The notes beneath the pieces were generated by a model. It ran no database searches. It was given only the letters and a program-made list of their open reading frames with translations, and had not been told where the DNA came from. The translations under genes were made by a program, and so were the position numbers. A stretch of DNA of 64,000 nucleotides from assembly GCF_055900595.2 (NCBI RefSeq), contig NZ_CM148325.1, one strand, 5' to 3'. Within the stretch, counting starts at the first letter, position 1; the number at the start of each line of letters is the position of its first letter. Shown here piece by piece: positions 13,823 to 58,230 of this stretch.

Positions 13823-13898
13823 TGGCTCCTCTGACTGGACTCGAACCAGTGACATACGGATTAACAGTCCGCCGTTCTACCGACTGAACTACAGAGGA
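13823..13898 (-). tRNA. asnV: tRNA-Asn (GTT)
   Basis: 76-nt reverse complement of tcctctgtagttcagtcggtagaacggcggactgttaatccgtatgtcactggttcgagtccagtcagaggagcca. Confidence 0.95.
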
Positions 13899-14152
13899 AT
13901 CGTGTGAACGGGGCGCATATTAATGGCAGTGCATGGTGATGTCAAAGGGTGAAATGCATTTTTTTGTTTGTTTGCTGTCAATTTCAACAAAGTGATGAGA
14001 TTTCAATCTTATTGGTAATGAACCATCGTGGTGCATACCCTCCTTTTATAGGGCAGGGGAACGCGACTGCTGGTGAAAAGAGCCAATGACGAATCTATCA
14101 TAATCTCTTATTTGACAGTTGGTTAGCTTGTACATCAACGCCAAAATAAAAC

Positions 14153-14168
14153 TGGCAAGCATCTTGCA
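14153..14168 (+). promoter_or_regulatory. candidate sigma-54 (-24/-12) promoter of nac
   Basis: tGGcaagcatctTGCa, GG-N10-GC spacing about 55 bp upstream of nac; nac is known to be NtrC/sigma-54 dependent. Confidence 0.5.
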
Positions 14169-14223
14169 ATCTGGTTGTAAGTAATGGCGGCACTTGGGCC
14201 GATTCTCAAAAACCGGAGGCAAC

Positions 14224-15141
14224 ATGAACTTCAGACGCCTGAAATACTTCGTAAAAATTGTAGATATTGGTAGCCTGACTCAGGCTGCTGAAGTATTGCA
14301 TATCGCACAACCAGCGCTCAGCCAGCAGGTTGCCACACTCGAAGGTGAGTTAAATCAACAACTTTTGATTCGCACAAAACGGGGCGTTACGCCAACAGAC
14401 GCCGGAAAAATTCTCTATACCCATGCGCGGGCCATTTTACGTCAGTGTGAGCAGGCCCAACTCGCGGTGCATAACGTTGGTCAGGCATTATCGGGGCAAG
14501 TCTCGATTGGCTTTGCGCCAGGAACCGCTGCGTCATCCATCACCATGCCCTTATTACAGGCGGTTCGCGCTGAATTCCCGGAGGTCGTTATCTATCTTCA
14601 TGAAAATAGCGGTGCAGTGCTTAACGAAAAACTGATAAATCACCAACTCGATATGGCGGTGATTTATGAGCATTCCCCTGTGGCTGGTGTATCCAGTCAG
14701 GCTTTGCTGAAAGAAGATCTTTTCCTGGTAGGAACTCAAGATTGCCCGGGGCAAAGCGTTGATGTTAATGCTATTGCACAAATGAACCTTTTTCTCCCCA
14801 GTGATTACAGCGCTGTTAGACTTCGTGTTGATGAGGCGTTTTCCCTACGGCGGCTCACGGCAAAAGTCATTGGTGAAATTGAGTCTATTGCTACGCTTAC
14901 CGCAGCGATTGCCAGCGGCATGGGCGTTGCAGTATTACCCGAATCGGCCGCGCGTTCGTTATGTGGCGCAGTAAATGGGTGGATGTCACGCATTACCACG
15001 CCTTCCATGAGTCTCTCTTTGTCATTAAATTTACCCGCCAGAGCGAACTTATCGCCACAGGCACAGGCAGTGAAAGAGTTGTTAATGTCAGTGATTAGTT
15101 CTCCAGTGATGGAAAAAAGGCAGTGGCAATTGGTGAGCTAA
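14224..15141 (+). CDS. nac: nitrogen assimilation control protein Nac (LysR family)
   Basis: MNFRRLKYFVKIVDIGSLTQAAEVLHIAQPALSQQV... matches Nac; 305 aa from internal ATG of the 315-aa ORF. Confidence 0.9.
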   Translation: MNFRRLKYFVKIVDIGSLTQAAEVLHIAQPALSQQVATLEGELNQQLLIRTKRGVTPTDAGKILYTHARAILRQCEQAQLAVHNVGQALSGQVSIGFAPGTAASSITMPLLQAVRAEFPEVVIYLHENSGAVLNEKLINHQLDMAVIYEHSPVAGVSSQALLKEDLFLVGTQDCPGQSVDVNAIAQMNLFLPSDYSAVRLRVDEAFSLRRLTAKVIGEIESIATLTAAIASGMGVAVLPESAARSLCGAVNGWMSRITTPSMSLSLSLNLPARANLSPQAQAVKELLMSVISSPVMEKRQWQLVS

Positions 15142-15242
15142 GCGTTATATCGGGATGGAATAAGATGCGGGTTTTTATTATTTGTTATGCCGGGCGTTAG
15201 ACTTTAACAATAACGGGATATCTGAACTGCCCGGAGTTTACC

Positions 15243-56537: not shown

Positions 56538-56730
56538 GAGTAACTGTTTTCTAACCTCACAACCAGACTGTCCAAAGACAATTGAGTCGCTCTTTGATTC
56601 CTCTGTGACTCTATTGTCTTCTTTTGGGATAAAATAGGTGTTTTTCGTCATGAAGTTGATAAAAGTCTATATAGAACCACCTCCTGTGGAGGTGGTGGTA
56701 ATTTGCCAGAGTGTGGGATTCGTTAGTATA

Positions 56731-57993
56731 CTATGGGATAAACTTATTTTTACCAATTGTATAAGGCGGTGCATAAGATTCTCGGCATGCTTCCAGATAA
56801 TCCGACCACCACTGCATCATCGCTTTGCGGGCTTCCAGGTGCTCTGCCTTATGAATATAAGCCATGCGCACGGTATTGCGCTCCTGATGACTCATCTGGC
56901 GTTCTACTGCGTCCTTTGCCCATAAACCCGATTCCATCAGCGCACTGCATGCCATTGCCCGGAAGCCGTGACCGCAGATATCCTTTTTCGTGTCGTAACC
57001 CATCACCCGCAGTGCCTTATTGACCGTGTTTTCACACATTGGCTTATACGGGTTATGGTCGCCGGGGAAGATCAGTTCATTATTACCGGTGATATCCTTA
57101 ATCTGTTTCAGAATGGCGATGGACTGTTCTGAGAGGGGGACGATATGCGGCATTCGCATTTTTGCCCCGCGGCCGGAATAATGCACGCCAATAATGGGTT
57201 CTCGCGTCGCGGGTATCGTCCAGACTCGGTTTGTGAAATCAATCTCTGACCAGCGGGCGAAACGCAGTTCACTGGAGCGAATGAACACATGCAGCATCAG
57301 CAGAACGGCATGCCGGGTCAGTTCACGGCCCTGATGATATGCCCCAATACGTTCAAGCAGTTCAGGCAGCCGCTCCAGCGGCAGGGCAGGATAGTGCCGT
57401 CTGACAGGAGGTGTGGTCACGCCGCCAAGGTTTGCTGCAGGGTTCGTATCGATTAACTCCTGATGGACCGCATGGCGTATTATGTTACTCAGGTGCTGCC
57501 GTGTGCGGGACGCAACCTCCAGCAGACCTTTTTCCTCGATCCCTTTCTGCAGGTCAATGAAATGACGGGGTTTAAGTTCTGATACAGGTAGGTTCCCGAT
57601 GACCGGAAAGATGTGATTGTTCAGGCTGGCAAGCAGACGGTCGGCGGTGTTCTGCGACCATTTCCTGTTACTTTTATGCCACGCCAGCGCCACGTTTTTA
57701 AAAACTTTCTCCGGTGTTCGTGAGCCACGTACAGCAGCCCGCTGCTGTACCGGGTTGATATTCAGCGCCAGCATTTTACGGATACCTTCAAGTTGCTGTC
57801 GCGCATCAGACAGGGAGATGGCTGGATAGGCACCCAGCGCAATGCGGGATTCTTTACCGCTAATACGGTATTTGAGATACCAGTGGCGGGAGCCACCCGG
57901 CTTGACCCGCAGATACAGACTGTGAGAATCGGAGACTTTAAAGGGTTTATCAGAAGGCTTGAGGGTGCGGATTTTTGCGTCGGTAAGGGATAT
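56731..57993 (-). CDS. int: P4-like tyrosine integrase of the HPI; N-terminal codon reads ATA, so probably a pseudogene
   Basis: Continuous 421-codon frame ISLTDAKIRTLKPSDKPFKVSDSHSLYLRVKPGGSRHWYLKYRISGKESRIALGAYPAISLSDARQQLEGIRKMLALNINP...; no ATG/GTG/TTG between the upstream TAA and the internal MLALN. Confidence 0.75.
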   Translation of the reverse strand: MSLTDAKIRTLKPSDKPFKVSDSHSLYLRVKPGGSRHWYLKYRISGKESRIALGAYPAISLSDARQQLEGIRKMLALNINPVQQRAAVRGSRTPEKVFKNVALAWHKSNRKWSQNTADRLLASLNNHIFPVIGNLPVSELKPRHFIDLQKGIEEKGLLEVASRTRQHLSNIIRHAVHQELIDTNPAANLGGVTTPPVRRHYPALPLERLPELLERIGAYHQGRELTRHAVLLMLHVFIRSSELRFARWSEIDFTNRVWTIPATREPIIGVHYSGRGAKMRMPHIVPLSEQSIAILKQIKDITGNNELIFPGDHNPYKPMCENTVNKALRVMGYDTKKDICGHGFRAMACSALMESGLWAKDAVERQMSHQERNTVRMAYIHKAEHLEARKAMMQWWSDYLEACRESYAPPYTIGKNKFIP

Positions 57994-58153
57994 ATGGGGG
58001 TCACTCCATTATCGAACTAACCTGACCCCAGATTTGACCACCAATTTTTCCCGATGCGTAGGGTAAAATCAAAATGCACCGAGAAGAGTTTTCACACTAA
58101 CCTGTTGAATCAACATCAGATAAAGATTCGCAAGGATGCAAGAAAACAGAAAA

Positions 58154-58170
58154 TTGGCTCCTCTGACTGG
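58154..58170. repeat. 17-bp att core of the HPI at the tRNA-Asn 3' end (single copy in window)
   Basis: ttggctcctctgactgg is the reverse complement of CCAGTCAGAGGAGCCAA; not found between 26.8 and 27.7 kb. Confidence 0.6.
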
Positions 58171-58230
58171 ACTCGAACCAGTGACATACGGATTAACAGT
58201 CCGCCGTTCTACCGACTGAACTACAGAGGA
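58155..58230 (-). tRNA. asnT: tRNA-Asn (GTT), HPI integration site
   Basis: 76 nt identical to the other three asn tRNA genes. Confidence 0.95.

What the first reader, a model, noticed from the sequence alone, without database searches (positions are those of the whole stretch)
13823..58230. Four identical tRNA-Asn genes, each next to a variable or island boundary
asnV (13823-13898, -), asnU (16231-16306, -), asnW (18055-18130, +) and asnT (58155-58230, -) are 76/76 identical. Each carries the 17-bp 3' sequence used as the HPI att site, yet only asnT is occupied. asnV and asnU are each preceded by a bidirectional terminator hairpin. The identical copies are potential substrates for homologous recombination (inversion between asnW and the others, deletion between asnT/asnU/asnV), which could reshape or remove the HPI-to-cbl region.
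Basis: seen in the sequence. Interest (0 to 1): 0.3.

Follow-up and report, generated by a model that had tools for sequence, protein, structure and literature searches.

The report
Four identical tRNA-Asn genes, island docking sites
The window holds the well-known E. coli cluster of four identical asparagine-tRNA genes, which serve as docking sites for genomic islands (here the yersiniabactin island at asnT) and as breakpoints for inversions seen in other strains; it is real but already described.

Summary
Four tRNA-Asn(GUU) genes lie at the stated coordinates and are 76/76 identical. Each ends in the published 17-bp HPI att core, and only asnT abuts an island. That island is the common truncated E. 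coli HPI (about 26706-58154), with no distal repeat and 584 bp of backbone deleted. asnV, asnU and asnW abut core genes collinear with K-12.

I tested the recombination idea with chimeric flank-tRNA-flank queries against 5,426 complete E. coli genomes:
- asnV/asnW inversion junction: 265 genomes
- asnU/asnW (yeeO) inversion: 34
- asnT/asnW inversion: 1
- asnT-to-asnU or asnT-to-asnV deletion: 0
- asnU-upstream/asnV-downstream junction: 35; the one genome inspected was a complex relocation, not a simple deletion

The asnT-integrase junction is in 2,467 genomes. HPI also sits at asnV (ICE form) and at asnU (at least 31 genomes).

RecA-mediated and integrase-mediated exchange cannot be told apart, because the crossover falls in identical sequence. 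Nearly all of this is published (Schubert 2009; Auvray 2021). Verdict: real, ordinary, already known; my counts add only modest new detail.

The parts
13823..13898 (-). asnV, tRNA-Asn(GUU); att core at 13822-13838
   Evidence: named from K-12 synteny (ldtA/nac)
13789..13816 (.). Hairpin with flanking A- and U-tracts between convergent ldtA and asnV; terminator-like on both strands
   Evidence: -18.0 / -17.1 kcal/mol
13917..13945 (-). asnV sigma-70-type promoter match (TTGACA-17-TAATAT)
   Evidence: consensus match only
16231..16306 (-). asnU, tRNA-Asn(GUU); att core at 16230-16246
16195..16223 (.). Hairpin between convergent cbl and asnU; terminator-like on both strands. About 93% similar to the asnV terminator region (123-bp alignment).
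   Evidence: -19.5 / -17.7 kcal/mol
16323..16350 (-). asnU promoter match (TTGACA-16-TAAGAT)
18055..18130 (+). asnW, tRNA-Asn(GUU), the only copy in inverted orientation; att core at 18115-18131
18008..18036 (+). asnW promoter match (TTGACA-17-TAATAT)
18192..18222 (+). asnW terminator-like hairpin (13 pairs plus U-tract), unrelated to the asnV/asnU hairpins
58155..58230 (-). asnT, tRNA-Asn(GUU); att core at 58154-58170 forms the left junction (attL) of the HPI
58249..58277 (-). asnT promoter match (TTGACA-17-TAATAT). No terminator-like site lies between asnT and the integrase gene.
56731..57993 (-). HPI P4-type integrase (intB). The 420-codon frame is open, but the first codon is ATA instead of ATG (G>A at 57991).
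   Evidence: the identical allele is annotated as an intact CDS in FDAARGOS_1058
26706..58154 (-). High-pathogenicity island, common truncated E. coli type: int, ybtS-X-Q-P, ybtA, irp2, irp1, ybtU-T-E, fyuA and an AT-rich tail. 57.7% GC against 44-52% in the flanks. No distal 17-bp repeat.
13899..18054 (.). nac-cbl-asnU-yeeO segment bounded by the inverted copies asnV and asnW. It is the 4.3-kb segment found inverted in 265 other genomes; here it is in the K-12 orientation.
   Evidence: PMC8209727

Best explanation
These are the four chromosomal tRNA-Asn(GUU) genes of E. coli (asnV, asnU, asnW, asnT). ARAGORN finds no other tRNA-Asn gene in the window, and complete E. coli genomes hold a median of four matching sites. 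Each is a separate transcription unit with its own promoter match. asnV, asnU and asnW also have their own terminator. The copies are kept identical because the tRNA sequence is under strong constraint, and probably also by gene conversion (inferred). Their last 17 bases are the attachment core used by P4-type integrases of asn-tDNA islands: HPI and its conjugative (ICE) forms, the pks island, and others. In this strain the common truncated HPI sits at asnT. It lacks its distal repeat and took 584 bp of backbone with it, so it cannot excise by site-specific recombination. The other three sites are empty. The copies share 81-89 bp of exact identity, with asnW inverted relative to the rest, so they are also natural breakpoints. 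Across E. coli, the segments asnU-asnW, asnV-asnW and asnT-asnW are each found inverted. I think homologous (RecA-type) exchange is the more likely route for the clean inversions, and integrase action a contributor where islands are present. This step is inferred, not shown.
For: Gene calls, identity and the att core come, and the att sequence matches PMC2801613. Names and synteny match K-12. HPI anatomy is shown by three results: no fifth att copy; backbone identity stops at 58151 and resumes at about 26705, inside yeeJ; and the island has high GC. This matches the 'unique deletion of the right border' reported in PMC2606025. Other asn copies are competent targets: ICE-type HPI sits at asnV in 675SK2 with asnT empty, and HPI sits at asnU. 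Recombinant junction counts in 5,426 genomes are 265, 34 and 1. Clean inversions with no integrase nearby occur in LD27-1, PSJ-36 and ET5. Exact repeat length is 81-89 bp, above the roughly 25-30 bp minimum for RecA-dependent exchange (own knowledge).
Against: No rearrangement is visible in this window itself; it has the K-12 orientation. The survey shows what occurs in the species, not in this strain. For the asnV/asnW inversion, 264 of 265 genomes lack the clean reciprocal junction and carry something else there, usually an integrase-bearing island. This fits integrase involvement or single-lineage inheritance as well as it fits RecA. An att-only remnant next to cbl in 2016C-3878 is a site-specific signature. 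Deletions between direct copies, which homologous recombination should also produce, were not found. Genome counts are not counts of independent events.
Confidence: 0.85

Rival explanations
1. The rearrangements at the asn copies are made by island integrases, not RecA. A P4-type integrase acts on two chromosomal att cores, inverting the DNA between inverted cores (asnW against the others) and excising or relocating DNA between direct cores.
For: The asnV/asnW inversion almost always comes with an island at the second junction: 265 genomes carry the asnV-upstream/asnW-downstream junction, but only 1 carries the clean reciprocal one (JE86-ST05; Nissle-type pks junctions). LR-58-1 combines HPI at the asnU position with an inverted yeeO. 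2016C-3878 has the cbl-side flank of asnU joined to an att-only remnant, followed by a T6SS island. Auvray et al. link pks acquisition with the inversion.
Against: Clean yeeO inversions (LD27-1, PSJ-36) and the asnT/asnW inversion in ET5 have no integrase gene in the flanking 6-8 kb. The association with pks may reflect one ancestral event inherited by B2 lineages. In this window the only integrase has an ATA start codon, and the island has no attR.
Confidence: 0.3
2. The chimeric junctions in public genomes are assembly artefacts caused by the repeated tRNA, so there is no real structural variation.
For: Repeats are a classic cause of misjoins, and I did not inspect any reads.
Against: The identical stretch is only 81-89 bp, far shorter than the reads behind complete assemblies. 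Each junction type recurs in many independently sequenced strains. The reciprocal junctions are present in the same genomes. The asnV/asnW inversion was reported independently (PMC8209727).
Confidence: 0.03
3. The copies are only a redundant tRNA gene family. Their closeness to islands is incidental, and they have no practical role in reshaping this region.
For: This window shows no rearrangement. No asnT-asnU or asnT-asnV deletion was found in 5,426 genomes. The HPI here is immobile.
Against: The att core is the experimentally defined target of the HPI integrase. Islands are found at asnT, asnU and asnV, and an integrase-bearing island at asnW. About 300 genomes carry inversions whose breakpoints fall exactly at the tRNA copies.
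Confidence: 0.05

Closest known systems
E. coli K-12 asnT-asnW-asnU-asnV tRNA-Asn cluster (b1977, b1984, b1986, b1989)
   Same: It has the same four genes, the same neighbours (mtfA, yeeN/yeeO, yeeO/cbl, nac/ldtA), the same relative orientations and the same tRNA sequence. The backbone is collinear at 97.5%.
   Different: In K-12 asnT is empty and is followed directly by yeeJ. Here 31.4 kb of HPI is inserted, and 584 bp of the asnT 3' flank plus the yeeJ 5' end are missing.
Common ('fixed') E. coli high-pathogenicity island at asnT (Schubert et al. 2009, PMC2606025)
   Same: It is inserted at asnT with intB next to the tRNA. The fyuA-side border and its direct repeat are lost, and the deletion reaches into the backbone. 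The same asnT-integrase junction is present in 2,467 of 5,426 genomes.
   Different: The integrase allele here starts with ATA. This allele is shared with at least four other genomes.
ICE-type HPI (ICEEc1 of ECOR31; ICEKp of Klebsiella), which can use any asn tDNA
   Same: It uses the same 17-bp att core and a closely related integrase (11 nucleotide differences in 1,263). ICE-type HPI is found at asnV, and HPI (right end not inspected) at asnU, in E. coli genomes.
   Different: The island in this window has no conjugation module and no distal repeat, so it is not mobile by itself.
asnW-asnU-asnV inversion in pks-positive B2 strains (Auvray et al. 2021, PMC8209727)
   Same: The breakpoints are the inverted tRNA copies named in the finding. 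I recovered the junction in 265 genomes, including Nissle 1917 and NU14.
   Different: This window carries the non-inverted, K-12-like orientation and no pks island. The survey adds two further inversion types (asnU/asnW in 34 genomes, asnT/asnW in 1) that I did not see in the passages I read of the three papers opened.

Membership tests
tRNA (Rfam RF00005), tRNA-Asn(GUU) | Covariance-model score above the gathering threshold, with a cloverleaf called by an independent tRNA finder | tested here: met
   72.6 bits against a gathering score of 29 for all four; ARAGORN calls all four
tRNA (Rfam RF00005), tRNA-Asn(GUU) | GTT anticodon and encoded 3' CCA | tested here: met
   Anticodon gtt at position 34; the sequence ends in ...GAGCCA
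tRNA (Rfam RF00005), tRNA-Asn(GUU) | Each copy is expressed and aminoacylated | not testable with these tools
   There are only promoter consensus matches upstream of each copy
asn-tDNA attachment site of the HPI P4-type integrase | Exact 17-bp core CCAGTCAGAGGAGCCAA at the 3' end of an asn tRNA gene | tested here: met
   Four exact matches, one per tRNA; the sequence is as in PMC2801613 Table 1
asn-tDNA attachment site of the HPI P4-type integrase | The site is actually used for integration at each locus | tested here: inconclusive
   Shown in other genomes for asnT (2,467), asnV and asnU. For asnW I saw a non-HPI integrase island and HPI next to an asnW-flanked copy only after a yeeO inversion. 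Integration was not tested in this strain.
Common truncated E. coli HPI | Inserted at asnT with intB adjacent to the tRNA | tested here: met
Common truncated E. coli HPI | Loss of the fyuA-side direct repeat, with a deletion that extends into the backbone | tested here: met
   No fifth att copy with up to 3 mismatches; 584 bp of the K-12 backbone are absent and homology resumes inside yeeJ
Common truncated E. coli HPI | Complete yersiniabactin gene set (ybtS to fyuA) | tested here: met
   ORFs of the expected sizes. fyuA to irp1 are aligned to annotated relative L001 at 99.9% identity. The L001 locus ends within irp2, so ybtA to ybtS rest on ORF sizes and on the gene order seen in other HPI loci.
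Bidirectional intrinsic terminator | GC-rich hairpin with a U-tract on both strands, placed between convergent genes | tested here: met
   the U-tract on the cbl side of the asnU hairpin is short (UUUUCAG)
Bidirectional intrinsic terminator | Termination of transcription in both directions | not testable with these tools
   This needs 3'-end mapping or in vitro transcription
Substrate for ectopic homologous recombination | Uninterrupted identity longer than the minimal processing segment (about 25-30 bp, own knowledge) | tested here: met
   81-89 bp exact runs for all six pairs
Substrate for ectopic homologous recombination | Recombinant flank combinations exist in natural genomes | tested here: met
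   Inversion junctions are found in 265, 34 and 1 genomes. The predicted large deletions are found in 0 genomes.
Substrate for ectopic homologous recombination | The exchange depends on RecA rather than on an integrase | not testable with these tools
   The crossover lies in identical sequence, and both mechanisms predict the same junctions

The most novel reading that the evidence does not exclude
Across 5,426 genomes, about 300 carry inversions between the asn copies. No simple deletion junction between asnT and asnU or asnV was found, and the one asnU/asnV junction inspected was a relocation, not a loss. Yet the direct copies are as long and as close together as the inverted ones. This asymmetry may mean that selection keeps four tRNA-Asn gene copies (or the genes between them). 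It may also mean that the asnV/asnW inversion, which is almost always paired with an island (264 of 265), is a by-product of integrase action that helps fix newly acquired islands.
Probability: 0.2. Interest if true: 0.4.

Novelty: already known. Interest (0 to 1): 0.2.

Why it matters
The asn-tDNA cluster is the entry point for two major E. coli virulence islands, yersiniabactin (HPI) and colibactin (pks). Knowing which copy is occupied, and whether the island still has both att ends, shows whether it can move. Here it cannot. The survey also supplies numbers. The asnT-integrase junction is in 45% of complete genomes. HPI at asnU or asnV is a minority state; the one asnV case traced to its right end is the ICE form. 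Inversions between the tRNA copies are fairly common, while loss of the HPI-to-cbl region by tRNA-to-tRNA deletion was not seen. None of this changes current understanding.

Tried and rejected
- **tRNA plus 600 nt of int, no upstream flank.** I meant to compare total HPI junctions with asnT junctions. It returned fewer genomes (2,016) than the asnT-specific query (2,467), because the longer integrase stretch is more often divergent or disrupted. It could not reveal HPI at other loci, so I replaced it with direct chimeric queries.
- **Multi-junction queries.** The tool joins pieces that hit the same site, so its 'at least 80% coverage' count is meaningless for these. I read them from the top-ranked rows only: 60% coverage means native, 72-78% means a full chimeric junction. 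They therefore give presence and lower bounds, not totals.
- **The asnU-upstream/asnV-downstream junction as a cbl-nac deletion.** I rejected this for the one genome inspected, because nac, cbl and asnV are relocated about 15 kb away. I could not reconstruct the sequence of events.
- **The integrase as a frameshifted pseudogene.** The ORF list splits it into 347- and 80-aa ORFs. I rejected this: the 420-codon frame is open and only the start codon differs.
- **A cryptic distal att or partial tRNA at the HPI right end or elsewhere in the window.** None was found.
- **Independent events.** I could not count independent inversion events or split the 211 asnV-integrase junctions into HPI, pks and other islands.
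Full report
**Observation.** ARAGORN calls five tRNAs in the window. Four are tRNA-Asn(GTT), at 13823-13898(-), 16231-16306(-), 18055-18130(+) and 58155-58230(-). Rfam's tRNA model scores each 72.6 bits against a gathering score of 29. The four 76-nt sequences are one identical string with an encoded CCA end. No partial copy exists elsewhere in the window. The 17-mer CCAGTCAGAGGAGCCAA occurs exactly four times, once at each tRNA 3' end. No further match appears even with three mismatches, where 0.17 would be expected by chance. This string is the published attO core of HPI-type islands (PMC2801613 Table 1).

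**Gene names and transcription units.** The closest annotated relative gives the same gene order around the cluster: cobUST-ldtA-asnV-nac-cbl-asnU-yeeO-asnW-yeeN-amn-shiA, then the yeeL and yeeJ remnants and the HPI from fyuA to irp2. The rest of the HPI, asnT and mtfA follow. Each tRNA has a good sigma-70 consensus match upstream, TTGACA-16/17-TAATAT or TAAGAT.

**Terminators.** The one at 13789-13816 folds at -18.0 kcal/mol on the tRNA strand and -17.1 on the opposite strand. The one at 16195-16223 folds at -19.5 and -17.7. None of 200 shuffles folded as well. Both have A- and U-tracts on either side and lie between convergent genes (ldtA and asnV; cbl and asnU), so a bidirectional terminator is a fair reading of the sequence. 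They lie 3' of the tRNAs, not before them in the direction of transcription. The two terminator regions are related to each other (123 bp at 93.5%). asnW has a different terminator-like hairpin at 18192-18222. asnT has none before the integrase gene.

**What is occupied here.**
- K-12 and the window are collinear from 11658 to 23058 at 97.5% with no large indel, so asnV, asnU and asnW are empty sites flanked by core genes.
- On the asnT side, K-12 identity runs from 59779 to 58151 and resumes only at about 26705, inside yeeJ.
- The 31.4 kb in between is the HPI: int, ybtS-X-Q-P, ybtA, irp2, irp1, ybtU-T-E and fyuA. It has 57.7% GC, and its last kilobase is AT-rich at 33%.
- 584 bp of K-12 backbone are missing (the asnT 3' flank and the first ~220 nt of yeeJ), and there is no distal repeat.
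- This is the 'common' E. coli HPI, described as fixed at asnT by loss of its right border (PMC2606025).
- The integrase frame (57993-56731) is open for 420 codons, but its first codon is ATA. The same allele is annotated as intact in another genome.

**Test of the recombination idea.** I built queries of 300 nt of one copy's upstream flank, the tRNA, and 300 nt of another copy's downstream flank. I searched them against 5,426 complete E. coli genomes and counted sites covering at least 80% of the query. A native locus can cover only 56%. 'Up' and 'down' below mean the upstream and downstream flanks.

| Junction | Meaning | Genomes |
|---|---|---|
| asnT up + integrase | native HPI at asnT | 2,467 |
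| asnV up + asnW down | 4.3-kb asnV/asnW inversion | 265 |
| asnU up + asnW down | yeeO (asnU/asnW) inversion | 34 |
| asnT up + asnW down | asnT/asnW inversion | 1 (ET5) |
| asnU up + asnV down | expected cbl-nac deletion | 35 |
| asnT up + asnU or asnV down | loss of the HPI-to-cbl region | 0 |
| asnW up + asnV down | clean reciprocal of asnV/asnW inversion | 1 (SE15) |

**Inspection of annotated loci.**
- LD27-1 and PSJ-36 show a clean flip of yeeO between asnU and asnW, with no integrase nearby.
- ET5 shows yeeN-amn-shiA-yeeL-yeeJ flipped between asnT and asnW in an HPI-negative locus.
- JE86-ST05 shows the 4.3-kb inversion with an integrase island at the ldtA side.
- SE15, the single genome with the asnW-upstream/asnV-downstream junction, also has a rearranged locus.
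- In 2016C-3878, the asnU-upstream/asnV-downstream junction is not a simple deletion. nac, cbl and asnV sit about 15 kb away behind a second integrase. The cbl-side flank of asnU is joined to an att-only remnant followed by a T6SS island.

**Occupancy across E. coli.**
- A junction of the asnV upstream flank with an HPI-like integrase flank is present in 211 genomes over a range of identities. At least 29 are at 97.9-98.6% identity.
- In 675SK2 this is a full ICE-type HPI with VirB and MobC modules at asnV, and asnT is empty. This matches ECOR31 in the literature.
- At least 31 genomes carry HPI next to asnU.
- LR-58-1 has HPI at the asnU position plus an inverted yeeO.
- The pks integrase flank is similar enough to cross-match at about 94%.

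**Mechanism.** The copies share 81-89 bp of exact identity. That is enough for RecA-dependent exchange (own knowledge). Clean inversions without a local integrase favour this route. The near-complete coupling of the asnV/asnW inversion to an island, and the att-only remnant in 2016C-3878, show that integrase-mediated exchange between att cores also acts at these sites, or that the coupling is inherited from one ancestor. The crossover lies in identical sequence, so sequence data cannot separate the two routes. In this strain the HPI has one att end and an integrase with a weak start codon. Any rearrangement here would therefore most likely be homologous; this is inferred.

**Comparison with what is known.** The following are already published:
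- the four identical asn genes;
- the 17-bp core;
- HPI fixed at asnT with a deleted right border;
- ICE-type HPI at asnV;
- pks at asnW, asnU or asnV;
- the asnW-asnU-asnV inversion.

The survey adds four things:
- junction frequencies in complete genomes;
- the yeeO and asnT/asnW inversions;
- HPI at asnU;
- the absence of tRNA-to-tRNA deletions of the HPI-to-cbl region.

**Verdict.** The feature is real and correctly described. It is already known and of low interest.

Noticed in passing
window 57991 (integrase gene 56731-57993, - strand): The HPI integrase start codon is ATA instead of ATG. The rest of the 420-codon frame is open. It differs at 11 nucleotides from the ICE-type allele. At least four other genomes share the exact allele, and PGAP annotates it as intact.
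   Followed up: partly
window 23049-23826: An IS1 copy replaces about 560 bp of the yeeL (glycosyltransferase family 9) gene relative to K-12 and to the closest relative. The closest relative instead carries an IS1 inside nac.
   Followed up: partly
window 24218-26705: yeeJ (inverse autotransporter adhesin) is a remnant. Its 5' end was lost with the HPI right-border deletion, and several kilobases are missing internally compared with K-12.
   Followed up: partly
window 1-8934: The region left of cobU is not shared with the closest relative. It holds IS fragments (ISL3 at 4839-6218, IS3 at 8083-8814) and a phosphotriesterase-like ORF (6870-7700). At this position the relative (L001 5380-10723) has pseudogene fragments (galactonate dehydratase, ClbP, thioesterase), a PAPS-reductase gene with an IbrB-like gene, and a TonB-dependent receptor gene.
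   Followed up: partly
window 59222-59311 (+): tRNA-Ser(CGA), serU, lies just beyond mtfA and is unoccupied here. In O157:H7 WS4202 a prophage integrase sits directly next to it (L013 6869-8033).
   Followed up: no
L013 (NZ_CP012802.1, O157:H7 WS4202) 9025-13495: This genome gave a single tRNA-Asn match. asnT is followed by a truncated yeeJ and IS1203. The other three copies appear to have been lost in an IS-associated deletion, so one copy may be enough for viability.
   Followed up: partly
L008 (UM146) 7302-8278 and L018 (SE15) 1424-2521: An extra or displaced tRNA-Asn copy is preceded by a yeeO 3' fragment. In UM146 it lies between asnV and the pks integrase, giving five copies. This suggests pks arrived together with a piece of asnW flank, or that the copy arose by duplication.
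   Followed up: no
L004 (2016C-3878) 17810-17870: The cbl terminator is followed by TTGGGCTCCTCTGACTGG, which is the att core with one extra G and no tRNA body. A T6SS/Rhs island follows. I could not reconstruct the order of events that moved nac-cbl-asnV.
   Followed up: partly
one search hits H57-H67 (e.g. NZ_LR778147.1, NZ_CP029747.1): In some HPI-negative genomes the 3' flank of asnT matches the first 68-147 nt of this window's asnW 3' flank, unlike K-12. This hints at past exchange between the asnT and asnW flanks.
   Followed up: no
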